A stretch of DNA of 64,000 nucleotides from an uncultured Bdellovibrionales bacterium (GTDB taxonomy: Bacteria; Bdellovibrionota; FAC87; UBA2466). Below are positions 13,432-59,047 of the stretch, piece after piece. The notes beneath the pieces are model-generated. The model was not told where the DNA came from, searched no databases, and saw nothing but the letters and a program-made list of their open reading frames with translations. The translations under genes were made by a program, and so were the position numbers. How positions within the stretch are numbered: the stretch's first letter is position 1; every line of letters starts with the position of its first letter. The stretch lies in assembly GCA_937903155.1 (NCBI GenBank), contig CALCZU010000132.1, forward strand, positions 18,043-82,042, in the 5' to 3' direction.

Positions 13432-13459
13432 CCGTCGTTGCGAGGAGCGGAGCGACGAG
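13432..13459. repeat. REP-like element copy (CCGTCGTTGCGAGGAGCGGAGCGACGAG)
   Basis: Nearly identical to the copy at 25034..25062. It lies in the intergenic gap between two minus-strand genes. Confidence 0.5.
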
Positions 13460-13468
13460 ATGGAAGAA

Positions 13469-13915: not shown

Positions 13916-13998
13916 TTTTGGCCTCCAAAAACGTTTATTGTGAACACAAAGTTTTGCGAAGACAAGCCCTTCTCACGAAATTTTGATTCTCCCAAGAC

Positions 13999-16284: not shown

Positions 16285-16366
16285 GCGGATTCGAGTAACA
16301 TGACCGAATGGTAAGCGCAAATTTTTGATGTGTTATTCGCAAACATTGCATGTATGATTTTGTCTC

Positions 16367-17281: not shown

Positions 17282-17312
17282 CAATAAGTAGCCGACATAT
17301 TTCAACTAAGGG

Positions 17313-18494: not shown

Positions 18495-18500
18495 AAACCC

Positions 18501-18540
18501 TTGTCATTGCGAGCGTCCGTAGCACGCGCGGCAATGACAG
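18501..18540. repeat. REP-like element copy (TTGTCATTGCGAGCGTCCGTAGCACGCGCGGCAATGACAG)
   Basis: Shares the GTCATTGCGAG core and GCGTAGCAC with the other copies and is internally palindromic. It sits between convergent genes. Confidence 0.55.
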
Positions 18541-18562
18541 AATGCGCTCTCCATCAAAAAAG

Positions 18563-20680: not shown

Positions 20681-20684
20681 GACT

Positions 20685-44523: not shown

Positions 44524-45503
44524 AAAAAATCCTTACGATATAAAACGTAACGGTGGTCCCAGAGATCGCGTGATTTCTTATTGTAGGAAGCACTGTGATT
44601 GCCACGGTGGATTAAAGCCGTCGTAAACTTATCAATTCCGTTTTCAGAAGCTTTCAATGCGGGCAAGTAACTCAAGGCTGTCGAGATCCCTTTTCCCCGG
44701 TAGACCTCATCCACGACTATTGTTTTTAAAACCAGATACTCTTTTTCAACAAAGATAAAGAAAAATCCAATCTCTTTTCCTTCGGGAGAGACGGCGAAAT
44801 AGCTGTAACTATAATCCTGTTTCGCTGCGAGCGCAGAATAGAGTTGCTTGAATAGCGGCAAAGAAATGGGTTCATAGAGTTTGTTGTTTTTAAAACCTTC
44901 AATGCTTAAGGAGTAAAGTTTCTCAACTTCTTTTTCCATGAAGTTCTCAGAATCAAACGGTCGGAACTGATAACCCTCTTGAACTAATTTCTCCCAAGTC
45001 GGTTTGATTTTTTGGGCGTATTCCTTAAGTCCTTCAGACCCAGGGCTATGGTAGTGCTCTGCCGCGACAAAACCCGCTTCTAAAAAGTACTGATTGTAGA
45101 TGACCGGATTTTTTGGCTCCCAACTGAATTGTAAAGGATCTGAGTCCTCGCGAAACCGGTAGGGAAACCAGGTATTAAAAGCCATCGGCCCATAGACAGT
45201 TTTTGCCCCACGCGCTTTCATCCACACACTTGCAGAATCAATCAGGCTTTGCGCAACTTCAGCACTCGACGCTTCGAAAAGTCCAAACGTTCCGGTGTCA
45301 GGATAATCCCGCATGAGCCCAGCACTCATCCGACCGACAGGTTCGTTGTTTTCAAGAGCAACAAAGAAACAAGCACTCGCAGAAGGCGGAAAAAGAAGTA
45401 GAAAATATTTCTTAATCGCTTCCGGTTCGCTGCCAATTTTTAAAAAGGCCGATTCAAATTCATTTGAAGGATTCTCATTCGAAAGAATTTTAATTTTCGA
45501 CAT
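44520..45503 (-). CDS. Hypothetical protein (possible GNAT-like fold)
   Basis: 327 aa with no clear motif. It is translationally coupled within the operon. Confidence 0.3.
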   Translation of the reverse strand: MSKIKILSNENPSNEFESAFLKIGSEPEAIKKYFLLLFPPSASACFFVALENNEPVGRMSAGLMRDYPDTGTFGLFEASSAEVAQSLIDSASVWMKARGAKTVYGPMAFNTWFPYRFREDSDPLQFSWEPKNPVIYNQYFLEAGFVAAEHYHSPGSEGLKEYAQKIKPTWEKLVQEGYQFRPFDSENFMEKEVEKLYSLSIEGFKNNKLYEPISLPLFKQLYSALAAKQDYSYSYFAVSPEGKEIGFFFIFVEKEYLVLKTIVVDEVYRGKGISTALSYLPALKASENGIDKFTTALIHRGNHSASYNKKSRDLWDHRYVLYRKDFL

Positions 45504-45505
45504 CC

Positions 45506-48226
45506 CTACCTCAAAATTCTGATTTCACCCTTACCTGCGTCTACCCGCACTCGATCACCCGTTTTTAAACGCGTCATTAAGCCACCATTGACACCCACAA
45601 TCGTCGGAAGACCGAGCTCTCTCGCAACGACCGCCGAATGGGACAAAAGACTTCCTCGTTCAATTAAGAGGCCGCTACACGAAGGATAAATCGGCACCCA
45701 TCCTGGATCGGTTCTTCCCGTCACTAAGATTTCGCCATCAATCCCTTGCGCATCTTTTGCGGAATGCACGACGCGAACAACGCCTTCGATAATTCCGGGA
45801 CAACAAGGAGTTCCCATCAAGACATCCGGATCATCACTGACTAAGAGATTCCTTAAGAGATCCCCTTCGGCCATTACAGAGGGAAAGCGAGCTGCGGCTC
45901 CCAGCGCACCCATCGTCACCATGCGATCGGGAGGGGCGACCGTTTTGTCGAATGTCGCATACTCCGCTTTTCGGATGGCTACGATTTGCTTCAATTCAAG
46001 AGACACGGCACGGCCCTCGATGAAAGCCACAATTTCTTCCACTGTGAGATAGAAAACATCCTGTCGAGTCTCCAAGAATCCAAGCTGGGTAAGTTTTTCT
46101 CCCATCGCTCTAAAAAGATGACGACTCACCCCAAAAATCTTCGTCCGCGCGAATCTTAAATTTTCGCGATTGCGAACGGCTCGACGGGCCTGCTTTAAAA
46201 TCCAACGGTAGACAATTTTTTTAACGCCCGAAAGCGCTTCGTCCGCCACTTTCTCGGCGGCAATGCGAATTTCTCTTTCGCGGGCTTCCATGTGCTCGAT
46301 TCGGTAAGACTGCGTTTTTACGTAACTCACCACCGATGAAATCACAAAAGTCGGATCATCGTGCAAATCCGGTTCTTCGAGTTTTAATTCGTTAATACAA
46401 CGGAATCCGTAACGGTCGAGGAAGTCTGCGAGGTCCTTCGCGAGGAAGGTTTCCTTGCCTTCGCCTTTAATAAAGCTCCAAAGCTCTTCTGGTGTACTTT
46501 CTAAAGCTTTTTTCTTTAGAATCACATCTTGATCGAGTCGAGCAGCAATTCTCATTAAACATTTTGTCGGCTCGGTGGAATCTAAATCTCCTTGCCCGCA
46601 GAGCAAGTCATTTTGAAGAGAATCTGCTTTCGATGAGTCCTTCACAACCCATTCGCTAGTGAGCTTCTTTAGCAATCCGAAAAAGACCATGCAAAGATAA
46701 TCGTTGATGATCGGTGCCTTCCATTGCTTGAGAAGTTCTTCGTCTAGATAAAAGAAATAATCCGAGAGCTCTTGCAACGACATTGCGTTGAAATTTTTCT
46801 TTCGAGCAACGTCGTAACATTTATTAAATCGATTCTGAAACTCCGCAATAATCGAATCAATTTTTAAAAACCGATTCAAAGTCCTAACGGAAAGAACAAT
46901 TTTTGAGAATAAGGAATACTTCGGTGGCTCTTTTACGAAATCAAAAATTTCTTTCAACTCAGGCCGGACCTGATCTTTCACTCCCATCATGGTTTCCATG
47001 AAGCCCTTGTTGCTCGAGGACCCCGGGAGCATCAGAACGAGCTGATACCAATTCACGAGATTGTAATAAATTCGTCCGCGAATTAGGGCGAGCATATTGC
47101 GAAAGACCTTAGCTTGTTTATCGACGAGCTCTTGAGGCACGCCCATCAGCTCGCAAAACTGAATATAAACTTGGTTATACGCCCGGCTTGCGAAACTAAA
47201 AGTCAGCGGAGACGTCACTCCACTATAGCTTTCAATGATATTCGAGTTATCCCAAAGAATCGGTTGTTTACCGACAATCGTCGGATCGTAAAAAGCATCG
47301 GGAGGAAGACTCGTAATCGGTCTCGTCTGAACCAAAAAGATTTCATTTCCTTCAAGACACCATTCGATATCTTGAGGCGATCCTAGGCTTTCTTCCAATC
47401 GACACGCAAGACCTGCGATTTTTAAAACTTGAGAGTCGGAAAGAGAGGATTTTCCCTGAAGGGTCGCTTCAAGTCCGACTTTTTCAATTCCACCTGAAGA
47501 AAGCTGAGACATCTTCTCTTTTTTATCCGCGATTTTCGAAATAATGTTTTGTGTCTCGCGGTGAGCTTCGAAATCATCCGAATCGAGTTCACCACTGACA
47601 AGCCCTTCTCCCAGTCCCCACACCGAGCTAATTAAAACATGATCTCTGTCTAAAACTTTAATGGGATGCCTCGAGAAGGCGACGCCCGCACTGGTCGCAT
47701 TCACCATCTTCTGAATCACAACCCCCACTCGGATATTGTGAAGAGTGATTCCTCTTTCCAAACGATAGCTCAAAGCTCGTTCTGAAAAACCCGAAGCCCA
47801 GCAGGCTTTAATCGATTCACAGATCTGATCAAATCCTTTCTGAAATAAAAACGAAGAGAATTGTCCCGCAAAAGAGTGCTCGCTTGAATCCTCATCGATT
47901 CCGCTTGAACGAACGGCAACGAACGGGGTCAGAAGTCCCGCTTTTTCGAGTTCACTTTTTAAAATTTCGCCTAACGAAGCTGAAAACGGAGCTGAAGTAA
48001 TCTTCGAATGGATTCGCTCGCTTTCGGCGAGTGGCTCGCCATCGACGACGAGCGCGGACTCCAAATTGTTTTCTTGAATAAATCGGTCGAAAACTTCTGC
48101 ACCGACACAAATCCAGGGCGGCACCGGAAAATTTTTCTGGGAAATTTTAGCGAGATTTGTTGCTTTACCGCCCCCGCGGTTTTGAAAGAACTCAATGGGA
48201 TCATTCGGAGATAGGATCAGATTCAT
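45506..48226 (-). CDS. PEP-utilising phosphotransferase with PPDK_N ATP-grasp domain and C-terminal phospho-His swivel domain (rifampin-phosphotransferase/PEP-synthase-like architecture, no TIM-barrel PEP domain)
   Basis: 906 aa. The N-terminus GGGKATNLAKI is the PPDK_N nucleotide-binding motif. The extreme C-terminus ERGSLLSHSAVVARELGLPTIVGVNGGLMTRLKTGDRVRVDAGKGEI is the PEP-utilisers mobile-domain motif with the catalytic His. Confidence 0.7.
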   Translation of the reverse strand: MNLILSPNDPIEFFQNRGGGKATNLAKISQKNFPVPPWICVGAEVFDRFIQENNLESALVVDGEPLAESERIHSKITSAPFSASLGEILKSELEKAGLLTPFVAVRSSGIDEDSSEHSFAGQFSSFLFQKGFDQICESIKACWASGFSERALSYRLERGITLHNIRVGVVIQKMVNATSAGVAFSRHPIKVLDRDHVLISSVWGLGEGLVSGELDSDDFEAHRETQNIISKIADKKEKMSQLSSGGIEKVGLEATLQGKSSLSDSQVLKIAGLACRLEESLGSPQDIEWCLEGNEIFLVQTRPITSLPPDAFYDPTIVGKQPILWDNSNIIESYSGVTSPLTFSFASRAYNQVYIQFCELMGVPQELVDKQAKVFRNMLALIRGRIYYNLVNWYQLVLMLPGSSSNKGFMETMMGVKDQVRPELKEIFDFVKEPPKYSLFSKIVLSVRTLNRFLKIDSIIAEFQNRFNKCYDVARKKNFNAMSLQELSDYFFYLDEELLKQWKAPIINDYLCMVFFGLLKKLTSEWVVKDSSKADSLQNDLLCGQGDLDSTEPTKCLMRIAARLDQDVILKKKALESTPEELWSFIKGEGKETFLAKDLADFLDRYGFRCINELKLEEPDLHDDPTFVISSVVSYVKTQSYRIEHMEAREREIRIAAEKVADEALSGVKKIVYRWILKQARRAVRNRENLRFARTKIFGVSRHLFRAMGEKLTQLGFLETRQDVFYLTVEEIVAFIEGRAVSLELKQIVAIRKAEYATFDKTVAPPDRMVTMGALGAAARFPSVMAEGDLLRNLLVSDDPDVLMGTPCCPGIIEGVVRVVHSAKDAQGIDGEILVTGRTDPGWVPIYPSCSGLLIERGSLLSHSAVVARELGLPTIVGVNGGLMTRLKTGDRVRVDAGKGEIRILR

Positions 48227-48238: not shown

Positions 48239-49087
48239 CTATAGTTTTCCAAACAGTTTTAATAAAAAAACCGACCAAATATGAATCACTAAGCTGAGAC
48301 TCGCCACAGCCTCTACCACTTTGTGAAGACGAAATCGAAGCAAAAGATAGGAGAGGGGAACGGCAATCGCAAATACTGCGGTCAGAGGATAAACCCCTAA
48401 ATAATAACCGCTTATGAGGGCTATCGTAGTAGTCACTAAAATGATCCCTAAACAGCCTTTGATTCCATACATCTGCCGGTAGGTTTTTAGAAGAACATGA
48501 GCATTCGGGTCGAGCTTACGAGACACTTCGTATGTGAAAAAAGAACCCAGCACGGTAAAGGCGTAGTACCAGGAATAAGATTTAGCGAGCGCTTGCGAAT
48601 CCGTCATAACGACGGGAAACAGACTGACCCAGACGAGAACTAACTGGTGGGTTGTCGCATACAAAATCTGGCGCGCCTCAAGCCACGGGCCTAAATAAAA
48701 CTCCACATACATCAGCCAAAGATGCACGGTGAGCCCCAAAAAGATAAGCCCGCTCACAGGTGAATGCGCGAAGAAAAGACAGCCAGCAAAAAGACCCATT
48801 CCCAAAACGACCAAAAGGATGACTTTCTTCACTTGTTCAACAGGGAGAAGCCCTCGAGGAAGCGGGCGGGTCGGATTTGCGATACAGTCTTTGTGGTAAT
48901 CCTTCACCTCATCCATCATTCTTAACATCGCGAAAAAAACCATAAGTCCCAGAAAAGAGAAGAGAAACTCTCTGGAAAGGAGAATGCCGCCGGCCAAAAG
49001 AGTTCCCGAGGCGCTAAATCCGCCCACCAAAATCGTATACACGACGAGAGGGAATCGCTCTTTTGTGTAGATCCACCAAGCCTTCAT
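48239..49087 (-). CDS. UbiA family aromatic/isoprenoid prenyltransferase (membrane)
   Basis: 282 aa. The first Asp-rich motif is RMMDEVKDYHKD (NDxxDxxxD type) followed by PTRPLPRGLL, in a 7 to 9 TM protein. Confidence 0.75.
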   Translation of the reverse strand: MKAWWIYTKERFPLVVYTILVGGFSASGTLLAGGILLSREFLFSFLGLMVFFAMLRMMDEVKDYHKDCIANPTRPLPRGLLPVEQVKKVILLVVLGMGLFAGCLFFAHSPVSGLIFLGLTVHLWLMYVEFYLGPWLEARQILYATTHQLVLVWVSLFPVVMTDSQALAKSYSWYYAFTVLGSFFTYEVSRKLDPNAHVLLKTYRQMYGIKGCLGIILVTTTIALISGYYLGVYPLTAVFAIAVPLSYLLLRFRLHKVVEAVASLSLVIHIWSVFLLKLFGKL

Positions 49088-49265: not shown

Positions 49266-49976
49266 ATGAAAAACCTCAGTTATTTTTTCGCATTGGCTCT
49301 TTTCATAGGGGCTTCAAGCTTTGCCATCACCCCTCCCGAAATCATCTCGAATGCCGATGCGATTCGAAATCCTTCGCAGAATTTTCACCTCAAAGTCGCC
49401 GTTACGAGCACGGACACCGATGACCAGTCTATTTTTGATGTTTCGATCCAGGGAAATACCCGAACGTTGATTCGGACGTTAAGTCCGGCCCGAGACAAGG
49501 GACGCAATATGCTGATGCTCGAAGAAGACATGTGGTCATACTTGCCCACTTTAAAAAGAGCGGTGCGAGTGAGCTTGAGCCAAAAACTCACCGGCCAAGC
49601 TGCGAATGGAGATATCAGCCGAATGAGGTGGGCCGAAGATTACGAAGCCACCCTCACCCAAGAAACACCCAAAGAGTGGGTTTTGCATTTAAAAGGAAAG
49701 AAGAAAGGTCTGACTTATGATCAGTTAGATGTTTGGGTTGAAAAAGATTCTTTTCGTCCTCTCAAAGCAAATTATCTAAGCGTTACCGGACAGACTTTAA
49801 AAGAAGCGAGTTATCTCGATTACAAACTGATGGCTGGCAAGCAACGACCTACCAAAATCGTGATTCAAGATGCGATTAAAAAATCTGCATCTTCGATTTT
49901 GACCATCCTCGAAATGGAATCACGCGATTTTCCACAATCCCTTTTCACTCAAGGAAATCTATCCCGCAGTGAATAG
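49266..49976 (+). CDS. Outer-membrane lipoprotein-sorting protein, LolA-like fold family
   Basis: 236 aa with a signal peptide. Composition and pattern are typical of small LolA-like (pfam17131-type) proteins. It overlaps the next gene by 8 bp. Confidence 0.5.
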   Translation: MKNLSYFFALALFIGASSFAITPPEIISNADAIRNPSQNFHLKVAVTSTDTDDQSIFDVSIQGNTRTLIRTLSPARDKGRNMLMLEEDMWSYLPTLKRAVRVSLSQKLTGQAANGDISRMRWAEDYEATLTQETPKEWVLHLKGKKKGLTYDQLDVWVEKDSFRPLKANYLSVTGQTLKEASYLDYKLMAGKQRPTKIVIQDAIKKSASSILTILEMESRDFPQSLFTQGNLSRSE

Positions 49977-51174
49977 ACTCGCCTTCACCCTTTTTATTTT
50001 GCTAAGTGCGTTTTATCGCTCTGCAAATGCTTACGAGTTTTCTAAAATCCAATGGACACCCGACTTTGAACTGGGACATCAGCTCGTCTACGGAGCAAAA
50101 GAAAACAAACTTTCGAAGAACTTAGGTTACACCGTTCTCTCGCTCAAGACGGACTTCCCCACCGAGTCGGCGACAGATCTCATCAACACGCGCATTTCTC
50201 TCAGGGGAGCACTGGACACCCAAGGGCCCGATGAAATTTCGATTCGTGCTTTTAACCTCAATTACGGAAACAACTGGCTGACCGTTACTGCAGGTTTTCA
50301 AGAAATAGCGTGGGGAGAAACTTTCGGGGTTTATATTTCCGATCTCGTCAATTCTAAGGACTTAAGAGATCCGTTCCTAAACGATTTGAGTTGGATTCGA
50401 ATTCCAACGGCGTCTTTACTCGCGCAAATCAATCTCGATAATTGGACACTCCAAGCCATCGTCACTCCGTTTCCGAAGAACAATCAATTCCCAGACGAAA
50501 TCAATCACCTTAAAATTGTTGAGCCTCCGGCGCTTCGACGAGACAATGTCTTTGAGCAAGCCGAGTGGGGCGCAAAGTTAGGACGTCTCTTTTCAACGGG
50601 CCTGGACGTGAATTTTTTCGCGCTCTACCATTGGAATCGAAACCCAGTGTTTGCACCTCAGCTTGTGGGAACGACGATTGGACTCATGCCCATTGTCCAG
50701 CAAACAAAATCGACAGGGCTGAGCTTTACTCAAGCGTGGGATAAAGTCGTTCTTCGAGGAGATTTCGTTTACCATTTACAAACACCGTTACAACCCGACT
50801 TCACCCAAAGACACCGAATCGGGAATTTTTTCCAAGCCATTCTGGGATCGGACCTCACGCTCGAGGAAAATTTGATCTTAGGGGCGCAATATCATGGGGA
50901 CTACGACGATGCTTCGAACCGGCATTGGTTGGGTTTGAGGGTCTCCAAACCCTTGCTTCGGCAAAAATTAACGCCAGAGCTTTTTGTTTTTCAAGGAATC
51001 AACAATAGCGACACCTGGATCCAACCCAAAATCCGATGGAATACTTCAGCAAATCTATCTCTTGATTTTGAATACTCTTGGATTCCCAATTTTCGAAGAA
51101 CGGCTCAGCCTGGATACTTTGGAACGTTTGAGAATTATCACCGGGTGTTTAGCTGGCTAAAATACAAATTTTAG
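49969..51174 (+). CDS. Putative outer-membrane beta-barrel protein
   Basis: 401 aa with a signal peptide. Alternating amphipathic beta-strand pattern and a C-terminal aromatic residue (...WLKYKF). Confidence 0.4.
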   Translation: MNRLAFTLFILLSAFYRSANAYEFSKIQWTPDFELGHQLVYGAKENKLSKNLGYTVLSLKTDFPTESATDLINTRISLRGALDTQGPDEISIRAFNLNYGNNWLTVTAGFQEIAWGETFGVYISDLVNSKDLRDPFLNDLSWIRIPTASLLAQINLDNWTLQAIVTPFPKNNQFPDEINHLKIVEPPALRRDNVFEQAEWGAKLGRLFSTGLDVNFFALYHWNRNPVFAPQLVGTTIGLMPIVQQTKSTGLSFTQAWDKVVLRGDFVYHLQTPLQPDFTQRHRIGNFFQAILGSDLTLEENLILGAQYHGDYDDASNRHWLGLRVSKPLLRQKLTPELFVFQGINNSDTWIQPKIRWNTSANLSLDFEYSWIPNFRRTAQPGYFGTFENYHRVFSWLKYKF

Positions 51175-52259
51175 ATCTTTTTCAGAAGTTCCACTTCGTA
51201 AACACCGACTTTTTCTTTCGAAATTAATTCGCGGTAGTTTTGAGTGATGTCGACGTAACCTGTTTTGTCACTGTTCTCAGGGATGTGGAGGTAATGTCGT
51301 AAGACGACCAATGCATTTTTTGAAAGATGCGGTAAGAGATCCGCAAGGTACTTCTTTTCTTTATTTCCCGTAAAATAAGACGGAACATCGGAGAGTGAAT
51401 AAAAATCAATCGGGGAATTCGCCGTTTGAGCGAGTTCAATCACATCTCCCTGCTGATATGAAACCTCACAGTTTTTTGCGCCTTCTTTTGCTGCAGCAAA
51501 AACATCGGGATGACATTCCACAGTACAGCCTTCGGGATAGGCAATTTCTCCCATAAAAAGAAGCTGCAAAAAGAAATTTTCGCGCGCTAACGTATTTTCA
51601 AAAAGATGGGCAAAGACTCGATTGTAAAACCCGACGTAACTCTCGGAGATATTCTTCTTGGTAAAATCGCCTTTATAGAGGAGCGCATTAAAAACCGAGG
51701 CATTTCCTAAGAGCGCGAGCACTAGTTTCCAACGCAAACGCGGAAAACGTTTTTTAAAGTACTCCTTTTGCTCTTTTAAATCTCGGCATTCAAAAATTTT
51801 TCTCCCCGCACGGCCTGTGATTTTGGAATTTACTTTGGAGAGATTTACAAAAAGATTTTCCCACTTACCGAGATACAATAAAGGCTTCCAGTAAATCGAT
51901 TCAAACATTCCCGAGAGATATTCGCGCGCAGGATTCGAGAGTGTCAGAGAATTAAAAATCTTTTTTCTCTCTTCGGCCGTCGCTTCTACTCCGGGATAAC
52001 CGAAAAGTTTTTTAAATTCATCGAGAGAAAGCGCTTTAACGCCTTCAATTCGCATTTCGGTCAGATAGAGCTGAAAAGGAGAAACATCGACGCAAGTGAG
52101 TTTCTTTGGCGCGCGAGAGAGGAGAGGCATGGCTCGCCCGCCACTTCCCGCAACGGTAAAAACATGGGAAGCATTTAGCGGGAGCAAGGCGACTTCTAAA
52201 GCCGTATCTTCATTAGCTAAAGTGTAGTTCAGTTTATTTTCAAAATATTGATTGCTCAC
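51171..52259 (-). CDS. DUF3419 / BtaA-like protein (SAM:diacylglycerol 3-amino-3-carboxypropyl transferase family)
   Basis: 362 aa. The N-terminus LNYTLANEDTALEVALLPLNASHVFTVAGSGGRAMPLL....LTCVDVSPFQLYLTEMR matches the BtaA/DUF3419 pattern (NY..cWED...L.....vl.itSgGcnaL..L....v.aVD.np.Q..L.eLK). Confidence 0.5.
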   Translation of the reverse strand: MSNQYFENKLNYTLANEDTALEVALLPLNASHVFTVAGSGGRAMPLLSRAPKKLTCVDVSPFQLYLTEMRIEGVKALSLDEFKKLFGYPGVEATAEERKKIFNSLTLSNPAREYLSGMFESIYWKPLLYLGKWENLFVNLSKVNSKITGRAGRKIFECRDLKEQKEYFKKRFPRLRWKLVLALLGNASVFNALLYKGDFTKKNISESYVGFYNRVFAHLFENTLARENFFLQLLFMGEIAYPEGCTVECHPDVFAAAKEGAKNCEVSYQQGDVIELAQTANSPIDFYSLSDVPSYFTGNKEKKYLADLLPHLSKNALVVLRHYLHIPENSDKTGYVDITQNYRELISKEKVGVYEVELLKKI

Positions 52260-52361
52260 GACCGCATCCCTCTCAAACCTTGTAGATGCCCCGCCCGCCT
52301 CACTATTAGAAAATTTCGCCTAAATTAGCAAGCCGTTCCTATCAATCTATGGTAACTCTTT

Positions 52362-53780
52362 TTGAAAATTTATAACTTTATGAATTGTATAGAAATTTTT
52401 GCGGAACGACAAAAAGAGGTCAAAGACAATCTCGCTCTATGGTGTCCTGGCCAAGAGAAAATGAGTTTCGGAGAATTATACTCGCTCGCCGCTCGCATTC
52501 AGATTGAACTTTTGAAGCAGGGGTTACGTCCAGAAGATCCGGTTTTAGTTTTTGAAGGTTTATCACCTCGACTTTATGCGACGATTTTAGCCCTTTTATC
52601 GACGGGAGCGACGATTCTCTTCGTTGAGCCTTGGATGCCTTTGAAAAAAATTGAACATGTGATTCAAACTGCAAAACCTCGTTTCTTTCTTGCGGGAGTC
52701 GTTGGTAAACTTTGGGGTTTAAGAGTTCCTGCAATCCGCAAAATTCCAAATTGGATCAGTGTCAACTCGCTCGCAAAAGCTACCAAAACGGGAGAGCTTA
52801 AAATCGAATCGGTTCCCGGCGAAGTTCCAGGGATTATCACTTTTACAACTGGCACAACGGGAAAACCGAAAGGCGTTGTTCGACACCAAAGTTATCTTCT
52901 CGAACAGTACCGCGTTTTTTCAAAGTCTCTTTCAATTAACGATCATTCGGGACCTGACTTGTGCATTTTTGCAAACTTTGCGCTCGCCAATCTTGCAGCA
53001 GGTAGAGGCAGTCTCATTATTCCCTCTGGATGGAAGAAAAAGCATTTAAAACAGCTCGATCATTTTTCCGCGAAAGAAAAACCGGAGACAATGACTTCGG
53101 GCCCGGCGTTCCTCATGCGTTTAATGGAACTTGGGGTCGCAAGAGATCTCAAATCGATTCATATCGGTGGAGCTCTCACCGATTGTGCGATTTTCGAAAA
53201 GGGATTTGCTCACTGGCCAAAAACACACTGGATGCACCTCTATGGAAGCAGCGAAGCTGAGCCCGTAGCACTTGCAGATGCCGAAGAAGCCGTTCGAAAA
53301 AGCCGCGAAAAAGGCCTGTTTCAAACTCTCTATCTGGGAAAACCGATTTCCGAAGTCGAAGCAAGAGTCGAGGACAAAGGCCTTTGGATCACAGGCCCTC
53401 ATGTTTGCCCAAAATACTTTGCAAACGAAGATGAGAATCGAATCCACAAACACACCGATGAAAAAGGTCGAGTGTGGCACGCGATGGGAGATCGGATTGA
53501 AGAAGACTCTAGCGGATGGTGGTATTCGGGAAGGGCTCAGCAATCGCGCGCTGATTTTACGTTAGAACAAAATATTTATTCTCACCTTCAATCGAGCAAC
53601 GCCTTTCTTCATCGAGACAAAGACAAGTTGATTGTTTATGGAAAAAATCTCGAGAAACGAAAAGGCGAACTTCTAAAAGCATTTCCTTCTCTGACAGATT
53701 GTTTTTCCGCACCCATTGTCCGAGATCGCAGACACCGCGCCCGAATCGACCGCGTCGAAAGCCGCAAGCGCGCGAAGTAA
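52362..53780 (+). CDS. AMP-dependent synthetase/ligase (adenylate-forming enzyme)
   Basis: 472 aa. The core motif ITFTTGTTGKPKGVV is the A3 box (T/S)GTTGxPKG. Confidence 0.75.
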   Translation: MKIYNFMNCIEIFAERQKEVKDNLALWCPGQEKMSFGELYSLAARIQIELLKQGLRPEDPVLVFEGLSPRLYATILALLSTGATILFVEPWMPLKKIEHVIQTAKPRFFLAGVVGKLWGLRVPAIRKIPNWISVNSLAKATKTGELKIESVPGEVPGIITFTTGTTGKPKGVVRHQSYLLEQYRVFSKSLSINDHSGPDLCIFANFALANLAAGRGSLIIPSGWKKKHLKQLDHFSAKEKPETMTSGPAFLMRLMELGVARDLKSIHIGGALTDCAIFEKGFAHWPKTHWMHLYGSSEAEPVALADAEEAVRKSREKGLFQTLYLGKPISEVEARVEDKGLWITGPHVCPKYFANEDENRIHKHTDEKGRVWHAMGDRIEEDSSGWWYSGRAQQSRADFTLEQNIYSHLQSSNAFLHRDKDKLIVYGKNLEKRKGELLKAFPSLTDCFSAPIVRDRRHRARIDRVESRKRAK

Positions 53781-53897: not shown

Positions 53898-55982
<2,085 letters not shown>

Positions 55983-58046
55983 TTAGTGAGCCCAGTCTCT
56001 GAGACCTTCGCGTCCTAAGTTTCTCGCCTGAGCGATTCTTTCAGGCGTAATAAATCCTTCGGGCCCGCGAATCGCCGAGAGTTTTGCACCGTGTTTTAAA
56101 CCAATTTTATAAATTTCTTTCACTCGATCCATTGAGAGTTCGCGAGAGAGAGAAAAGGGCTCATATCGGCCTTCCATCGTGAGAAGAATCGTTTCTGCTA
56201 GGCACGCATAGACCGAAGGTTTGGGCAGTCCGATATCGACGTTGTAGTCGGGAGTTCCTGGAAGATGCACTTCTCCGCTTTCGATCACCAAAACATCGGG
56301 GCGCTTCGCCGCGTCTTCCGCACTAATATCGAGTGGCCGCGAGCAATCGCAAATCACTGCCCCCGGTTTCACTTCGTTAATATTTAAAATGCTGCCAGAG
56401 AGATTTGAGGTCGCCGTCACAATGAGATCGGCCGTCGGAAGATCCGCATTGGCATGAGTCGACAACTTTACTTTGGTGTGAGGAGACTTCGCTAAGACTT
56501 CTTCTCTTAACTCCAAAAGCTTGTCCGAACGCTGCCCAACAAGCACAATATCGTCGAAAACCAATGACACCAGAAGCGAAGCCACGCGCCCGATACTACC
56601 GGTCGCGCCAATAATCATCGCTCTTCCGTGAACTCGTTTGCCATTTTCATGGGGTTTTACAAATCCCATTTGAGCAACCATATCTCTCGCAGCCCAAAGT
56701 GTTGTCGCAACTGAATAAGAATTCCCTGTCGTGACAGGAAGTGGAGAGCGCCTGGAAACCGTCACTCCCGCATCCCCCACAATTTTGGTGTAAGCTCCGA
56801 GACCGAAAAGCAAAGCGCCATCTTTTTGTGCCATGACACTTGCGTTGACGAGTTTTTTGTAAATCATTTCTTCTGAGTTTGAGAGAAGTTGTTTCGGTGT
56901 TCCCATGATCCCGTAAATATCGCAGACCACTTCTTGACCATTAAAAGCACTCTGTGCACCAGTCAAAAGTCCGTATTTAAACACAGGGAGACGAATTAAA
57001 GACTTCTCAACCAAATCCTTCACCGGTTTAGACGTTTTTTTAAAGGGCCGAAACGCAGGAACTCTAAAAATATCCCTTTGGCTGAGAGGATGAACGATGA
57101 AGGCACAACGTCTTGCCCCTTCGACTCTTTCCCCTTTTAACCGGTTAGGTCGAATTTTTAATTTCGAAATCCATTCCAAAGCGAAATCATTGAATGCGAG
57201 TGGGCTATCTTCTGCGAGACGAATCTGATCAATCGTCGCTGAAAGCAACGAAAAGGGTTTTGCTCGCATGGCTTCAAGAAGCGGGTGGTGCGGAACAAAT
57301 TCGATAACCTGAGCCACTCCATTGGCTTCCAATTGTTCTCGCTGCGAACGAGAGAGAAAATCAACAAAAACAATCTTCCCTTTAACGACACTTAAATCAG
57401 GAATGTGTTCGAAGAGACTCGAGTAAGTGACAAAAACGTCGGACTGCTTGACCCACTCGCCCAGTTTCTTGAGCAAAGGCTGCTTTTTGTTATTGGGATT
57501 AAAGTAACTTTTCACCCAATTTAAAACTTTTAGCCCTTTGGTGAGGCGCTCTACGTTTGCTTCCCCTTCGAGTAAAACGGGGAGAGACGAAAAGACAAGC
57601 GCATCAGCACTAAAAATACGCGCACCATTTGCTTTGAAGACTTCGTAAAAGGAACTCGCTAGCACTGAGTGGAAGAGAACTTTTTTTCCACGAACCAGAT
57701 GCGGGTGATCTTTAAACACCTTTTTAAGTGTCCATTCTGCAAATAGGTTTCGAATTTCGTCGCCAATGTAAACCTGGCTTCTTTTTGCCAATCGAAAAAG
57801 GGCGAGCGTTTGGTCGTGAAATACTTGGGTCTGGCCAATTCCAATCGATTTACGTGTTCCGCTGAGAGCAATCGCATCCACATAGCCGTCATAGCGTTGG
57901 ATCAAGGCTTCGGCCGTTTTAAAATCCCATCCGATCGAGTGCGTTTGGACGTTAAAATCAATGCCTTCCATCTCGAAGATAAACTCTTGAGGGGTAGCGA
58001 CATTCAAAAAATCTAAAATTAAAATTTTTCTCTCTTTGCGAATCAT
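55983..58046 (-). CDS. Two-domain protein: N-terminal ~300-aa unknown domain fused to a C-terminal acyl-ACP reductase (AAR)-like NAD(P)-binding domain
   Basis: The C-terminal half aligns block-by-block with cyanobacterial AAR: AFIVHPLS vs FGLIGHLTS, TTGNSYSVA vs TTGNTHTAY, IIGATGSIGRVAS vs VVGATGDIGSAVC, LVGQRSDKLLELREEV vs LTARNQERLDNLQAEL. The comparison is from memory of the AAR sequence. Confidence 0.5.
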   Translation of the reverse strand: MIRKERKILILDFLNVATPQEFIFEMEGIDFNVQTHSIGWDFKTAEALIQRYDGYVDAIALSGTRKSIGIGQTQVFHDQTLALFRLAKRSQVYIGDEIRNLFAEWTLKKVFKDHPHLVRGKKVLFHSVLASSFYEVFKANGARIFSADALVFSSLPVLLEGEANVERLTKGLKVLNWVKSYFNPNNKKQPLLKKLGEWVKQSDVFVTYSSLFEHIPDLSVVKGKIVFVDFLSRSQREQLEANGVAQVIEFVPHHPLLEAMRAKPFSLLSATIDQIRLAEDSPLAFNDFALEWISKLKIRPNRLKGERVEGARRCAFIVHPLSQRDIFRVPAFRPFKKTSKPVKDLVEKSLIRLPVFKYGLLTGAQSAFNGQEVVCDIYGIMGTPKQLLSNSEEMIYKKLVNASVMAQKDGALLFGLGAYTKIVGDAGVTVSRRSPLPVTTGNSYSVATTLWAARDMVAQMGFVKPHENGKRVHGRAMIIGATGSIGRVASLLVSLVFDDIVLVGQRSDKLLELREEVLAKSPHTKVKLSTHANADLPTADLIVTATSNLSGSILNINEVKPGAVICDCSRPLDISAEDAAKRPDVLVIESGEVHLPGTPDYNVDIGLPKPSVYACLAETILLTMEGRYEPFSLSRELSMDRVKEIYKIGLKHGAKLSAIRGPEGFITPERIAQARNLGREGLRDWAH

Positions 58047-59047
58047 GCGTTTTCCCTCTGTAAAAAATCGCTATACCCTCTAAAAAATACATCTTGGTAT
58101 TTTTGAAAGGAAGGCACGAGGTTTTCTGAAAAGTCTCTGGTAAATTCCGGGTTTTTTAATTCCGTCGGAGTAAAACAAAAATCAAAAAGTTGAGACGGTA
58201 TATGCGTGTACCGAGTTTGTAGTTTCAGTGTCATAGAGGGGGCTCGGGTCATCAAAACTTTGGTTCGCGGAAAATATCGCCGCACCATCAAATTTGCTAA
58301 AATCGAGGCTCTCAGACTGTTGGGATTGTAAACACCATAAATCGGTTTGAGATCATTCATAAAGAGTGCCTTTACAAAGGCAAGGGCCGCCACATCGACG
58401 GGCACCAATGGGAGCAACGCTTTTCGTGCTCCTGGAATCGGAAGCACAGGGAGCCTTCCCAAAACTCTATTGGACTTTAAATTTTGTAAAAAATTTAAAA
58501 GGTAGTAAGGCCCATCTAGTTTTGCGATTTCACCTGATTGGCTGTCACCCACGAGAATTCCCAAGCGCAGTGCAACGCCTCTGACAGAAGACTCTAACAC
58601 GAGCTTCTCCGCCATCGCTTTGGTATGCGCGTAGGCTTTTTTCTTTGACGGCAGTGCGGTTAAAGGCAATTCATTTGAAACCGCTCCCCACGAGTCATTT
58701 TCGACAGCGTAACTAGAAGCATGCAGAAACAGCGGCTGATTCTGCGTTCTTTGCGCCCACTGGACAATCGAAGACGTTGCTAAAATATTATGGAGGTAAC
58801 ACTCTCGGTAATTCGCTTCGAATTGATAAAGGCCGGCCAGATGAATGATCGCATCGACTTTATTTTTCACGCCGTAAAGAGAGGTCGGGTCCGAGAGATC
58901 ACATTTGACGGATTTGATTCGACTATCGAGAAACTTCCGTTCACTTCTTGAGAGAAGGATAATCTCTGAAACTCTTTCTTCTTTTAACAGTTCACTTAAA
59001 ACCTGTTTCCCCAAAAATCCTGTCGCGCCGGTTAATAAAACTTTCAT
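58043..59047 (-). CDS. SDR-family NAD(P)-dependent epimerase/dehydratase/reductase
   Basis: 334 aa. N-terminal LLTGATGFLG Rossmann motif and a catalytic YxxxK region. It overlaps neighbours by 4 bp on both sides, so it is part of an operon. Confidence 0.65.
   Translation of the reverse strand: MKVLLTGATGFLGKQVLSELLKEERVSEIILLSRSERKFLDSRIKSVKCDLSDPTSLYGVKNKVDAIIHLAGLYQFEANYRECYLHNILATSSIVQWAQRTQNQPLFLHASSYAVENDSWGAVSNELPLTALPSKKKAYAHTKAMAEKLVLESSVRGVALRLGILVGDSQSGEIAKLDGPYYLLNFLQNLKSNRVLGRLPVLPIPGARKALLPLVPVDVAALAFVKALFMNDLKPIYGVYNPNSLRASILANLMVRRYFPRTKVLMTRAPSMTLKLQTRYTHIPSQLFDFCFTPTELKNPEFTRDFSENLVPSFQKYQDVFFRGYSDFLQRENA

What the first reader, a model, noticed from the sequence alone, without database searches (positions are those of the whole stretch)
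49266..53780. LolA-like carrier plus outer-membrane barrel, BtaA/DUF3419-like enzyme and an adenylate-forming ligase flanking the lipid operon
Diverging from the UbiA operon, a signal-peptide LolA-fold protein and a beta-barrel-like protein overlap by 8 bp. Small LolA-like proteins next to MacB-type ABC pumps are typical of systems that hand a hydrophobic cargo across the periplasm. Convergent on these is a protein whose N-terminus matches the DUF3419/BtaA pattern. BtaA transfers the 3-amino-3-carboxypropyl group of SAM onto diacylglycerol to make homoserine (betaine-precursor) lipids. Next comes an AMP-dependent ligase. Together with the operon this gives both the means to build a headgroup-modified lipid and the means to carry it to the outer membrane.
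Basis: partly seen in the sequence, partly recalled or inferred. Interest (0 to 1): 0.5.

Follow-up and report, generated by a model that had tools for sequence, protein, structure and literature searches.

The report
Conserved Bdellovibrionota lipid synthesis-and-export cluster
The four genes are real and belong to a larger gene set, conserved across the predatory-bacteria phylum Bdellovibrionota, that most likely builds a still-unidentified membrane lipid and ships it to the outer membrane; the "betaine-lipid from diacylglycerol" reading is not supported.

Summary

In 82 related loci, nearly all Bdellovibrionota, these genes recur in one cluster. The usual order is YegS-like lipid kinase, thioester-reductase SDR, 687-aa acyl-ACP-reductase-like protein, DUF3419, (formyltransferase, hydrolase) ligase, UbiA-like, Rph/PigC-like kinase, (GNAT), ABC, FtsX, LolA-like, barrel.

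- The ligase is fused to the UbiA-like protein in five genomes.
- DUF3419 shares an operon with the export genes in several others.
- The window holds a scrambled copy.

The BtaA/DGTS reading fails the partner test. No BtaB methyltransferase occurs in any locus or among the scanned ORFs of the window. The Pfam match is far weaker than that of true BtaA. The enzyme's fixed partners are thioester reductases, and close homologues sit in non-lipid plasmid clusters.

Best reading: an uncharacterised pathway for an amino-acid-bearing lipid built on a reduced acyl chain, with a dedicated Lol-like export route. The product is unknown. No description of the cluster was found in the searchable literature.

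The parts
49266..49976 (+). Periplasmic LolA-like carrier (PF17131 / TP_0789-like), 236 aa. Signal peptide, no lipobox.
   Evidence: Pfam 6.2e-42. PDB 3BUU at 3e-44. Only a weak NCBIfam LolA3 hit and no canonical LolA model. Found next to DUF3419-cluster genes in 31 of 82 loci.
49969..51174 (+). Outer-membrane beta-barrel, DUF1302-like, 401 aa. Best structural matches are 18-stranded barrels. Overlaps the LolA-like gene by 8 bp.
51171..52259 (-). DUF3419 (BtaA-superfamily) protein, 362 aa, predicted SAM-dependent transferase. Signature enzyme of the cluster.
   Evidence: Pfam 1e-37. Invariant VAGSGGR...D58 and N16-E17-D18 motifs in 29 sequences. 455 homologues, those with a taxon name all Bdellovibrionota. 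No PDB relative.
52362..53780 (+). Adenylate-forming (ANL) ligase, 472 aa. Substrate unresolved.
   Evidence: Pfam 4.6e-29. Best NCBIfam hits are PRK09274 fatty-acid-CoA-ligase family at 3.9e-39 and the amino-acid adenylation domain at 1.7e-23. Best PDB hit is the LgrA A-domain at 9e-12. Sits directly upstream of UbiA in most of the loci that carry both, and is fused to it in L022, L035, L042, L061 and L073.
48239..49087 (-). Divergent UbiA-superfamily membrane transferase, 282 aa.
   Evidence: NCBIfam PRK13592 at 7e-10. Homologues carry PF01040. The RxxDExKDxxxD motif is 100% conserved in 39 sequences.
45506..48226 (-). PEP-synthase / Rph / PigC-like ATP-dependent phosphotransferase, 906 aa.
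   Evidence: PPDK_N at 4.8e-73 plus PEP-utilizers. PRK06241.2-2 at 888 bits; RedH, PigC and Rph all near 1e-100. Phospho-His motif LLSH863SA invariant in 32 sequences. Present in 50 of 82 loci, next to UbiA in most of them.
44520..45503 (-). Tandem GNAT-like acyltransferase, 327 aa (type-A clusters).
   Evidence: Pfam Acetyltransf_1 at 2e-6. Present in 22 of 82 loci, downstream of the PEPS-like gene in most. Weak profile hits to amino-acid N-acetyltransferases.
43297..44523 (-). Type VII ABC permease (FtsX + MacB_PCD), LolC/E-like, 408 aa.
   Evidence: Pfam. PDB LolE at 2e-11. NCBIfam lolCE 88 bits against a cut-off of 362.
42414..43379 (-). Fatty-acid-hydroxylase-superfamily enzyme, OlsE-like, 321 aa. 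Window-specific tailoring gene.
   Evidence: Pfam 7.7e-27. NCBIfam OlsE at 1.4e-44, below cut-off. Absent from the 82 loci.
41438..42454 (-). 338-aa protein of unknown function. Window-specific.
   Evidence: No Pfam hit. Weak WS/DGAT hit at 0.0018. Absent from the 82 loci.
40758..41441 (-). ABC ATPase, 227 aa, DevA/MacB/LolD type.
   Evidence: Pfam ABC_tran at 4e-35. NCBIfam DevA family at 4e-58, MacB at 8e-55, LolD at 1e-53.
39550..40761 (-). Second type VII ABC permease, 403 aa, paralogue of 43297-44523.
   Evidence: Pfam. 33% identity to the other permease. Other loci carry one permease.
55983..58046 (-). 687-aa two-domain protein. Residues 1-311 form an orphan alpha/beta domain. Residues 312-652 form an acyl-ACP-reductase (AAR/PigE-N/TAD)-like domain with invariant Cys615.
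58043..59047 (-). Thioester-reductase / fatty-acyl-reductase-like SDR, 334 aa.
   Evidence: NAD_binding_4 at 2.8e-29. TIGR01746 thioester-reductase domain at 5.9e-23. Present in 42 of 82 loci.
59044..60006 (-). YegS/BmrU-family lipid kinase, 320 aa.
   Evidence: DAGK_cat plus YegS_C. NCBIfam lipid kinase PRK13057 at 2.7e-27. Present in 49 of 82 loci.
53898..55973 (-). Old-yellow-enzyme + flavin-reductase protein (2,4-dienoyl-CoA-reductase-like), 691 aa. Window-specific. Occupies the slot after the 687-aa gene where DUF3419 sits elsewhere.
   Evidence: Oxidored_FMN at 1.8e-83 plus Pyr_redox_2. Absent from the 82 loci. Membership in the pathway is uncertain.

Best explanation
The four genes are pieces of one conserved gene cluster of about 12-16 genes in Bdellovibrionota. 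The cluster most likely makes a hydrophobic envelope lipid of unknown structure and delivers it to the outer membrane. The window holds a rearranged copy split into five transcription units.

**Shown**
- The families co-occur, share operons and are fused in other genomes.
- The domain and fold assignments hold.

**Inferred mechanism**
1. An acyl thioester is reduced by the AAR-like domain of the 687-aa protein and by the thioester-reductase-like SDR. The product is a long-chain aldehyde or alcohol.
2. The DUF3419 enzyme uses SAM to add a head group to a hydroxyl of this lipid. By analogy with BtaA the group would be 3-amino-3-carboxypropyl. The YegS-like kinase phosphorylates a lipid hydroxyl.
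3. The ligase, the UbiA-like transferase and the Rph/PigC-like phosphotransferase act as one membrane-associated unit that elaborates the molecule.
4. Tailoring is done by a GNAT in window-type clusters, or by a formyltransferase plus an alpha/beta-hydrolase in the other type. A P450 or an OlsE-like hydroxylase is sometimes added.
5. A LolCDE/MacB/DevCA-type ABC machine extracts the product from the inner membrane. The soluble LolA-like protein carries it across the periplasm. The barrel inserts or releases it at the outer membrane.

The acceptor is more likely this reduced acyl-derived alcohol than diacylglycerol. The end product is not DGTS.
For: **Cluster conservation**
- In 82 loci anchored on DUF3419 homologues, the neighbour counts are: 687-aa gene 56, ligase/UbiA group 54, PEPS-like 50, YegS 49, SDR 42, LolA-like 31, ABC 27, FtsX 25, barrel 25, GNAT 22.
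- Fractions are higher in the 31 loci with full flanks.
- The canonical single-strand order, with overlapping stops and starts, is seen in L001, L008, L011, L033, L057 and L060.

**Fusions and operons**
- Ligase::UbiA is a single ORF in L022, L035, L042, L061 and L073. Hydrolase::ligase fusions occur in eight further loci, including L003, L038, L068 and L069.
- DUF3419-ABC-FtsX-LolA-like-barrel operons occur in L002, L014, L025, L042, L088 and L090.
- A minimal set YegS-687aa-DUF3419-LolA-like-barrel occurs in nine loci, several of them labelled Silvanigrellaceae or Silvanigrella, plus three truncated copies.

**Folds and active sites**
- LolA-like match to 3BUU.
- AAR-like domain with an invariant Cys.
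- Phospho-His motif in the PEPS-like protein.
- Asp-rich motif in the UbiA-like protein.
- SAM-type glycine motif in DUF3419.

**Export type**
- The permeases match LolE best, and the ATPase matches DevA, MacB and LolD. All are far below the ortholog cut-offs, so this is a paralogous and presumably dedicated system.
- The same ABC-FtsX-PF17131 arrangement is embedded in ACP/KS clusters on E. coli and Rahnella plasmids.

**Precedents**
- LolA2/LolB2 in flexirubin loci (PMC11885536).
- DUF1302 + DUF1329 + RND cofitness, proposed to export an envelope component (bioRxiv 10.1101/072470).

**Hints of an amino-acid head group**
- DUF3419, together with a GNAT or formyltransferase, an OlsE-like hydroxylase and A-domain-like hits for the ligase.
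Against: - No product is known and no experiment exists. Every chemical step is inferred from family membership.
- DUF3419 chemistry is established only for BtaA. This subfamily is divergent and could catalyse another SAM reaction.
- Close homologues occur in plasmid clusters that do not look like lipid clusters.
- The ligase substrate is unresolved: fatty acid, amino acid and aromatic acid all remain possible.
- Ordinary saturated chains are poor substrates for the known UbiA-type chemistry, so the role of the UbiA/PEPS pair is obscure.
- About half of the fully flanked loci lack the export genes within 10 kb. The minimal clusters lack the ABC pump.
- AAR-like folds may also catalyse non-reductive off-loading. 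The carmabin TAD is proposed to amidate (10.1101/2024.10.28.620694).
- All comparison loci were selected with patterns from this DUF3419 subfamily, and most come from metagenome bins.
Confidence: 0.6

Rival explanations
1. The DUF3419 protein is a true BtaA that converts diacylglycerol and SAM to diacylglyceryl-homoserine, a betaine-lipid precursor. The LolA-like protein and barrel then carry this lipid to the outer membrane.
For: - PF11899 match above the gathering score, covering nearly the whole model.
- Conserved SAM-type motif.
- JGI annotates the homologues as SAM:DAG 3-amino-3-carboxypropyl transferase.
- In algae, presence of DUF3419 tracks DGTS (PMC6642084).
Against: - No BtaB-like methyltransferase in any of 82 loci or among the scanned window ORFs.
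- The Pfam E-value is 1e-37, against 2e-106 for Rhodobacter BtaA.
- No NCBIfam match.
- The obligate partners are thioester reductases and a kinase, which DAG chemistry does not need.
- Homologues of 38-45% identity sit in plasmid clusters with heme-oxygenase-like, SpeD and Asp-hydroxylase genes.
Confidence: 0.1
2. The cluster makes a diffusible or secreted secondary metabolite rather than a structural membrane lipid. Candidates include an alkyl-amine or alkaloid-like compound, a pigment, or a signalling or antibiotic lipid used in predation. The ABC/LolA-like/barrel set is its efflux route.
For: - The 687-aa protein's closest characterised relatives are the PigE N-domain and NRPS terminal TAD domains.
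- The 906-aa protein is as close to PigC and RedH as to Rph.
- AAR-like reductases feed tambjamine tails (10.1101/2025.08.11.669332).
- The same export arrangement accompanies ACP/KS clusters on plasmids.
- Tailoring genes vary between genomes, as in natural-product clusters.
Against: - No pyrrole, NRPS, PKS or carrier-protein genes in the cluster.
- Distribution with conserved order across three labelled classes of the phylum (Bdellovibrionia, Bacteriovoracia, Oligoflexia) is more typical of an envelope component.
- LolA-like carriers and type VII ABC extractors handle membrane-anchored cargo. This rests on established knowledge of LolCDE and MacB.
- A YegS-family lipid kinase and an OlsE-like hydroxylase point to membrane lipids.
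Confidence: 0.15
3. The barrel, LolA-like protein and ABC system import or salvage lipids, for example from prey. The ligase and reductases then process the scavenged fatty acids.
For: - Pseudomonas putida DUF1302/DUF1329 mutants are impaired on fatty esters such as Tween 20 (10.1101/2020.07.04.188060).
- Many carriers are predators.
- The barrel's best structural matches are the Occ/OprD uptake channels.
Against: - FtsX/MacB-type (type VII) ABC systems are extractors or exporters with no known importers (established knowledge). The ATPase's best matches are exporters: DevA, MacB and LolD.
- The cluster also occurs in contigs labelled with genera not known to me as obligate predators, Silvanigrella and Oligoflexus.
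- No beta-oxidation genes are conserved in the cluster.
- AlgE, an export barrel, scores almost as high as the uptake channels.
Confidence: 0.08
4. The LolA-like, FtsX and ABC genes are simply this phylum's housekeeping lipoprotein-sorting machinery and lie next to unrelated metabolic genes.
For: - PGAP names PF17131 proteins 'outer membrane lipoprotein-sorting protein'.
- The permeases' best named matches are LolC/E.
Against: - lolCE scores are 88 and 55 bits against a cut-off of 362. There is no canonical LolA model hit.
- The export genes travel with DUF3419 in many different arrangements, and in some loci are directly co-operonic with it.
- They are missing from the 10-kb flanks of about half of the fully flanked loci, and the same kind of cassette occurs on plasmids. 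Neither is expected for an essential housekeeping system.
Confidence: 0.05

Closest known systems
BtaA/BtaB pathway for the betaine lipid DGTS (Rhodobacter sphaeroides; BTA1 in algae)
   Same: Shares the PF11899/DUF3419 domain and a conserved SAM-type nucleotide-binding motif. A lipid hydroxyl is the plausible acceptor.
   Different: No BtaB partner. The match to the family model is much weaker than for BtaA. It is tied to thioester reductases, a lipid kinase, a UbiA-like enzyme and an Rph-like kinase. The acceptor is probably not diacylglycerol.
LolCDE-LolA-LolB lipoprotein trafficking
   Same: A type VII ABC machine with two paralogous FtsX/MacB_PCD permeases and one ATPase, plus a soluble periplasmic LolA-fold carrier.
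   Different: The scores are those of paralogues, not orthologues. The outer-membrane receiver is a barrel, not the LolB lipoprotein. The presumed cargo is a small lipid, not a lipoprotein.
DevBCA-HgdD heterocyst glycolipid exporter and MacAB-TolC
   Same: The ATPase's best NCBIfam hit is the DevA family, followed by MacB. These are MacB-type pumps that move an amphiphile out of the inner membrane to an outer layer.
   Different: No membrane-fusion protein or TolC-like duct. A LolA-like shuttle and a porin-sized barrel take their place.
Flexirubin loci with dedicated LolA2/LolB2 (Bacteroidota)
   Same: LolA-family paralogues are encoded inside a biosynthetic locus for an outer-membrane lipid (PMC11885536).
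   Different: The chemistry is unrelated (polyene/dialkylresorcinol). The receiver is LolB-like rather than a barrel. The phylum is different.
DUF1302 + DUF1329 (+ BNR protein + RND pump) module of Pseudomonas and Shewanella
   Same: An outer-membrane DUF1302 protein is paired with a LolA/LolB-fold protein and an inner-membrane pump. The module is proposed to export an envelope component (10.1101/072470).
   Different: Here the barrel is shorter (about 400 aa against a 541-position model) and matches DUF1302 only marginally. The carrier is PF17131, not DUF1329. The pump is ABC/FtsX, not RND.
Cyanobacterial acyl-ACP reductase, the PigE N-domain and NRPS terminal 'TAD' domains
   Different: It carries an orphan 310-residue N-terminal domain found almost only in this family. 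There is no deformylating oxygenase, transaminase or carrier protein nearby.
Rifampicin phosphotransferase (Rph) and the prodigiosin ligases PigC/RedH
   Same: Same three-part architecture (ATP-grasp, swivel, phospho-His domain) with a conserved catalytic His.
   Different: Equally distant from all three (about 1e-100). It is next to a UbiA-like membrane protein in most loci that carry it. The substrate is unknown.

Membership tests
BtaA (SAM:diacylglycerol 3-amino-3-carboxypropyl transferase) | PF11899/DUF3419 domain over most of the protein | tested here: met
   130.7 bits, 1e-37, model positions 3-350 of 385.
BtaA (SAM:diacylglycerol 3-amino-3-carboxypropyl transferase) | Partner N-methyltransferase BtaB, adjacent or fused (btaAB operon, BTA1) | tested here: not met
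   No methyltransferase family is conserved within 10 kb in 82 loci. None was found among the scanned window ORFs.
BtaA (SAM:diacylglycerol 3-amino-3-carboxypropyl transferase) | Close sequence similarity to characterised BtaA | tested here: inconclusive
   No BtaA sequence was available for direct comparison. Indirectly, Rhodobacter BtaA scores 2e-106 on PF11899 (PMC6642084) against 1e-37 here. No NCBIfam model matched.
BtaA (SAM:diacylglycerol 3-amino-3-carboxypropyl transferase) | Diacylglycerol as acceptor; DGHS as product | not testable with these tools
   Needs an enzyme assay or lipidomics. The gene context (thioester reductases, lipid kinase) argues for a different acceptor.
LolA superfamily, PF17131 (TP_0789-like) branch | Family HMM match and a homologue with a solved LolA-type structure | tested here: met
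   PF17131 at 6.2e-42 over the full model. PDB 3BUU at 3e-44 over residues 19-235.
LolA superfamily, PF17131 (TP_0789-like) branch | Secreted soluble protein: signal peptide, no lipobox | tested here: met
   N-terminus MKNLSYFFALALFIGASSFA/ITP with no Cys. Most homologues show a similar hydrophobic signal-like N-terminus by eye. No signal-peptide predictor was available.
Housekeeping LolA/LolCDE (lipoprotein sorting) | Ortholog-level scores to the LolA, LolC/E and LolD models | tested here: not met
   No LolA model hit. lolCE 88 and 55 bits against 362; LolD 182 bits against 308; DevA ranks higher.
DUF1302 (PF06980) outer-membrane proteins | Family HMM match | tested here: inconclusive
   24.3 bits against a cut-off of 23.2, covering model positions 155-427 of 541. 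Many homologues carry a precomputed PF06980 hit.
DUF1302 (PF06980) outer-membrane proteins | Transmembrane beta-barrel with signal peptide and C-terminal aromatic beta-signal | tested here: met
DUF1302 (PF06980) outer-membrane proteins | Genetic pairing with a LolA/LolB-fold protein | tested here: met
   All 25 loci with the barrel also carry the LolA-like gene, and it lies immediately upstream of the barrel in nearly all of them. The known pairing is DUF1302 + DUF1329.
ANL adenylate-forming enzymes | PF00501 domain with the phosphate-binding A3 motif and the hinge motif | tested here: met
   4.6e-29. TTGTTGKPKG at 167-176 and GDRIEEDSSGWWYSGR from 384.
ANL adenylate-forming enzymes | Assignment to a substrate class (fatty acyl-CoA ligase, FAAL, amino-acid A-domain, aryl-CoA ligase) | tested here: inconclusive
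   All NCBIfam hits are far below cut-off: PRK09274 134 bits against 478; A-domain 83 against 317. The only PDB hit is the LgrA A-domain at 9e-12.
Type VII (MacB/LolCDE/FtsEX) ABC transporters | FtsX four-helix permease with a MacB periplasmic core domain, plus a separate ATPase | tested here: met
   FtsX and MacB_PCD in both permeases, and ABC_tran in the 227-aa protein. PDB matches to LolE, LolF and MacB.

The most novel reading that the evidence does not exclude
Bdellovibrionota make a previously unseen class of outer-membrane lipid.

- **Backbone:** a fatty alcohol or diol made by thioester reduction, not diacylglycerol.
- **Head group:** an ether-linked 3-amino-3-carboxypropyl (homoserine-type) group installed by a divergent DUF3419 enzyme. 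It is then N-formylated or N-acylated.
- **Elaboration:** further steps by a fused adenylase-UbiA enzyme working with an Rph-like kinase.
- **Delivery:** a LolB-independent route of ABC extractor, LolA-like shuttle and barrel. This would be a new solution to the open question of how non-LPS lipids reach the outer membrane.
Probability: 0.2. Interest if true: 0.8.

Novelty: new variant of a known kind. Interest (0 to 1): 0.55.

Why it matters
How Gram-negative bacteria move lipids other than LPS and lipoproteins to the outer membrane is still debated. Here a carrier, a barrel and an ABC extractor are genetically tied to a specific biosynthetic pathway. That gives a defined cargo-and-transporter pair that could be reconstituted.

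The cluster is found in contigs labelled with three classes of the phylum (Bdellovibrionia, Bacteriovoracia, Oligoflexia). That phylum includes the predatory Bdellovibrio-like organisms, whose envelope chemistry matters for prey invasion and for their proposed use as living antibiotics.

The cluster also shows that a DUF3419 hit alone should not be read as 'betaine lipid synthesis'. It points to three unexplored enzyme problems:
- the orphan N-domain of the 687-aa reductase;
- the ligase::UbiA fusion;
- the UbiA/Rph-like pair.

Tried and rejected
**Searches that gave nothing**
- Promoter and terminator scans of 48.9-54.1 kb gave no more sites than shuffled sequence.
- Rfam found only a tRNA at 28 kb and no riboswitch near the cluster.
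- A profile search of the PDB with the DUF3419 alignment found nothing.
- The window's own proteins are in the protein collection, but without a contig on record or a name. The organism is therefore known only as an unnamed Bdellovibrionota relative.
- The afdb50 fold library was unavailable.
- Literature searches for DUF3419, Bdellovibrio with aminocarboxypropyl, TP0789, and Bdellovibrio with acyl-ACP reductase or prenyltransferase found no description of this cluster. An early search combining 'LolA' with TP0789 was swamped by the Drosophila gene lola.

**Leads that did not hold**
- A Rhizobium rhododendri replicon carries a DUF3419 gene (L085) that I examined as a possible genuine btaAB reference. 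No methyltransferase neighbour was present, so it could not be used.
- Fold searches with the 687-aa model returned only the C-terminal AAR-like domain and generic Rossmann folds. The N-domain stays unassigned.
- The roughly 400-aa gene after the LolA-like gene on the E. coli plasmid could not be shown to be homologous to the barrel. The hhalign probability was 0.5% and there was no Pfam hit.

**Pathways considered and set aside**
- Archaeal-type ether lipid via a DGGGPS-like UbiA. There are only weak NCBIfam hits, and no conserved cluster family was identified as GGGPS or G1P dehydrogenase.
- Sphingolipid pathway (ceramide-kinase-like YegS, SDR, GNAT). No conserved cluster family was identified as a serine-palmitoyltransferase-type enzyme.
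- Prodiginine or tambjamine pathway. There are PigC-like and PigE-N-like proteins but no pyrrole-forming genes.
- Menaquinone MenE/MenA pair. The ligase hits menE only weakly and no conserved cluster family matches another men gene.

Full report
**Observation**

- The 236-aa protein matches PF17131 (LolA_like / TP_0789-like) over the whole model at 6.2e-42. It also matches the solved 'LolA superfamily protein NE2245' (PDB 3BUU) at 3e-44. It starts with a Sec-type signal peptide and has no lipobox cysteine.
- The 401-aa ORF begins 8 bp before the LolA-like stop codon. Its Pfam hit to DUF1302 is only marginal (24.3 bits against a cut-off of 23.2).
  - An AlphaFold2 model built on 40 homologues is confident (pLDDT 92, pTM 0.85).
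  - It has a signal peptide and ends in ...KYKF. All complete homologues also end in Phe.
- The 362-aa protein matches PF11899/DUF3419 at 1e-37. The 472-aa protein is an ANL adenylate-forming enzyme with intact core motifs.

Both 'would refute' conditions that could be tested here, 'no DUF3419 hit' and 'not a barrel', are therefore not met. The third, expression uncorrelated with the adjacent operon, could not be tested.

**The genes belong to a larger, conserved cluster**

The DUF3419 protein has 455 homologues. Wherever a taxon is named, it is Bdellovibrionota.

I scanned one genome per species with an alignment of these homologues. This gave 80 loci, the large majority labelled Bdellovibrionia, Bacteriovoracia or Oligoflexia/Silvanigrellaceae.

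I compared all ORFs of these loci, plus two metagenome contigs, with the window's proteins. The number of the 82 loci carrying each family within 10 kb of DUF3419 was:

| Family | Loci (of 82) |
|---|---|
| 687-aa protein | 56 |
| Ligase/UbiA group | 54 |
| PEP-synthase-like protein | 50 |
| YegS-type lipid kinase | 49 |
| NAD_binding_4 reductase | 42 |
| Formyltransferase (not in the window) | 33 |
| LolA-like protein | 31 |
| ABC ATPase | 27 |
| FtsX permease | 25 |
| Barrel | 25 |
| GNAT-like protein | 22 |

Many loci are truncated. In the 31 loci with full flanks, the corresponding counts for the window's own families are 22, 22, 21, 24, 20, 14, 11, 9, 12 and 8.

The 687-aa protein, the reductase and the kinase are encoded in the window at 55983-60006. 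A non-conserved flavin-reductase gene separates them from the ligase.

Not conserved elsewhere, and so probably strain-specific additions or unrelated neighbours, are:
- the OlsE-like hydroxylase;
- the 338-aa protein;
- the HAD gene;
- the MarR gene;
- the flavin reductase.

**Gene order and fusions**

The usual order is YegS, reductase, 687 aa, DUF3419, (formyltransferase, alpha/beta-hydrolase) ligase, UbiA-like, PEPS-like, (GNAT), ABC, FtsX, LolA-like, barrel. It often lies on one strand with overlapping stops and starts.

- In most loci the 687-aa gene ends 4 bp inside the DUF3419 start.
- The ligase lies directly upstream of the UbiA-like gene in most loci that carry both. The two are a single ORF in five loci from different lineages: L022, L035, L042, L061 and L073. 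The ORF length is close to the sum of the two window proteins in four of them (745-756 aa) and 828 aa in L061.
- The hydrolase is fused to the ligase in eight further loci.
- DUF3419 is the first gene of a DUF3419-ABC-FtsX-LolA-like-barrel operon in L002, L014, L025, L042, L088 and L090. L090 comes from a relative with 56% identity.
- Nine loci, several labelled Silvanigrellaceae or Silvanigrella, carry a minimal set: YegS, 687 aa, DUF3419, LolA-like, barrel. Three truncated loci show parts of the same set.
- The barrel never occurs without the LolA-like gene (25 of 25).

The window holds a rearranged copy in five units. It cannot be shown from the window's own signals, because the promoter scan was at chance level.

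**Export part**

- The two permeases are 33% identical paralogues with FtsX and MacB periplasmic-core domains.
- Their best solved relatives are LolE, LolF and MacB.
- Against NCBIfam they reach only 88 and 55 bits on the lolCE model, whose cut-off is 362.
- The ATPase scores highest on the DevA family (heterocyst glycolipid exporter), then MacB, then LolD.
- The LolA-like protein matches no canonical LolA model.

This is therefore a paralogous system, not the housekeeping one.

PF17131 homologues on an E. coli IncK2/Z plasmid and a Rahnella plasmid lie in similar ABC, FtsX-type permease, LolA-like, roughly 400-450-aa-protein arrangements inside ACP/ketosynthase clusters (the Rahnella copy has one extra small gene). 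This suggests a portable export module for hydrophobic products. I could not show that the fourth gene there is homologous to the barrel.

Published precedents are:
- LolA2/LolB2 inside flexirubin loci (PMC11885536);
- the cofit DUF1302 + DUF1329 (LolB-like) + RND module, proposed to export an envelope component (10.1101/072470);
- an alternative esterase idea for that same module (10.1101/2020.07.04.188060).

**Is the DUF3419 protein BtaA?**

It has the domain and a conserved nucleotide-binding glycine motif followed by an invariant acidic residue. Four results argue against the canonical role.

1. There is no BtaB-type methyltransferase among the conserved neighbours, and none among the window ORFs that were scanned.
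2. Its PF11899 E-value is 1e-37, against 2e-106 reported for Rhodobacter BtaA. No NCBIfam model matches it.
3. Its fixed partners are not needed for diacylglycerol chemistry.
4. Homologues of 45% and 38% identity on Deefgea and Xylella plasmids sit beside a heme-oxygenase-like iron enzyme, SAM decarboxylase, a monooxygenase, an Asp beta-hydroxylase and a GNAT. These do not look like lipid clusters.

I could not obtain a characterised BtaA sequence for direct comparison, so orthology is judged only indirectly.

**What the partners say about the chemistry**

- **687-aa protein.** Its C-terminal half is an acyl-ACP-reductase-type domain.
  - A family profile hits the PigE N-domain at 7.5e-41 and cyanobacterial AAR at 4e-17.
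  - Cys615 is invariant.
  - Its N-terminal 311 residues form an alpha/beta domain with no recognisable relative. Only 71 representatives exist among 1.84 billion proteins, nearly all in this same architecture.
- **334-aa protein.** It resembles thioester-reductase (R) domains. The 320-aa protein is a YegS/BmrU lipid kinase.
- **906-aa protein.** It has the Rph/PigC/PEP-synthase architecture with an invariant phospho-His motif.
- **UbiA-like protein.** It keeps the first Asp-rich motif, but I did not see a canonical second one among the conserved positions.
- **GNAT-like protein.** It appears to be a tandem GNAT, with weak similarity to amino-acid N-acetyltransferases.

Taken together, two reductases acting on an activated acyl group point to a long-chain aldehyde or alcohol. 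DUF3419, a formyl- or acyl-transferase, an OlsE-like hydroxylase and the A-domain-like ligase point to an amino-acid-type head group. This is inference, not demonstration.

**Model and confidence**

- Shown: the four genes are parts of a conserved Bdellovibrionota cluster, and the fold and domain assignments hold.
- Likely (about 0.6): the cluster makes a hydrophobic envelope molecule. The molecule is extracted by the ABC/FtsX machine, carried by the LolA-like protein and received by the barrel.
- Tentative (about 0.2-0.3): the DUF3419 enzyme transfers the aminocarboxypropyl group of SAM onto an alcohol derived from thioester reduction, rather than onto diacylglycerol.
- Unexplained: the role of the ligase, UbiA and Rph-like triad.

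Rivals are the canonical BtaA reading (0.1), a secreted secondary metabolite (0.15), lipid import or salvage (0.08) and housekeeping lipoprotein sorting (0.05).

**Novelty and limits**

Every family here is known. The general idea of a biosynthetic locus with its own LolA-like carrier also has precedent. This enzyme combination, its conserved order across the phylum and its fusions were not described in anything the literature searches returned. I rate it a new variant of a known kind.

Limits:
- The comparison loci were chosen with peptide patterns from this DUF3419 subfamily.
- Most loci are metagenome bins, some with doubtful taxon labels.
- No expression or chemical data exist.

Noticed in passing
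window 19541-22472 (-): Adjacent genes for topoisomerase VI subunit A (TP6A_N + Toprim, 379 aa) and subunit B (Topo-VIb transducer + HATPase_c, 595 aa). This is an archaeal/eukaryotic-type enzyme that, to my knowledge, is uncommon in bacteria.
   Followed up: no
window 6033-19534: A second set of genes that look related to envelope or head-group synthesis:
- PMT_2 glycosyltransferase-like
- APH-family kinase
- GFO/IDH/MocA oxidoreductase
- CDP-alcohol phosphatidyltransferase
- 567-aa unknown protein
- class-III aminotransferase
- DegT/EryC1 aminotransferase
- PAP2_3 phosphatase

Possibly a pathway for an amino-sugar or inositol-type phospholipid head group.
   Followed up: no
window 53898-55973 (-): An Oxidored_FMN + Pyr_redox_2 protein (2,4-dienoyl-CoA-reductase-like) lies 10 bp downstream of the 687-aa gene. 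This is the position that DUF3419 holds in most other genomes. It is absent from all 82 related loci.
   Followed up: partly
window 51171-51174: The stop codons of the convergent barrel gene (TAG, 51172-51174) and DUF3419 gene (TAA, complement of 51171-51173) overlap. There is no intergenic space for a terminator between the two convergent genes.
   Followed up: partly
window 57114-58046 (-), residues 1-311 of the 687-aa protein: An orphan alpha/beta domain. It has only 71 representatives among 1.84 billion clustered proteins, almost all at the N-terminus of the same roughly 700-aa architecture. The motifs D53-G54..D57..G63, W105, D148, K224 and D229 are invariant or nearly so. No PDB match was found by sequence or fold.
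   Followed up: partly
L083 (Deefgea piscis plasmid) 12589-17109; L084 (Xylella fastidiosa pXF-CO33) 7059-14819: Homologues of the window's DUF3419 protein (45% and 38% identity) lie on plasmids next to a heme-oxygenase-like 'iron-containing redox enzyme'. Also nearby are SpeD, an ABM monooxygenase and a serine hydrolase in Deefgea, or an Asp beta-hydroxylase and a large GNAT in Xylella. These look like uncharacterised small-molecule pathways.
   Followed up: partly
L091 (E. coli IncK2/Z plasmid NZ_CP060058.1) locus coordinates 1-10726; L092 (Rahnella sikkimica plasmid): Similar ABC ATPase, permease, PF17131 LolA-like, roughly 400-450-aa hypothetical arrangements are embedded in clusters with ACP, ketosynthase-like, SDR, PfkB kinase, crotonase or malonyl-transferase genes (L092 has one extra small gene between ATPase and permease). 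The export module seems to be reused by other lipid or polyketide pathways, including on mobilisable plasmids.
   Followed up: partly
window 29270-33346 (-) and 2629-4452 (+): A 1358-aa helicase/ResIII protein with a weak type-ISP coupler match, possibly a restriction-modification-like enzyme. Separately, a Peptidase_C25 (gingipain-family) protein.
   Followed up: no
L005, L029, L035, L039, L040, L045, L064, L066, L080: In nine window-type clusters a cytochrome P450 lies in the locus, directly after DUF3419 in seven of them. The window has an OlsE-like hydroxylase instead. Oxidative tailoring therefore seems interchangeable between genomes.
   Followed up: partly
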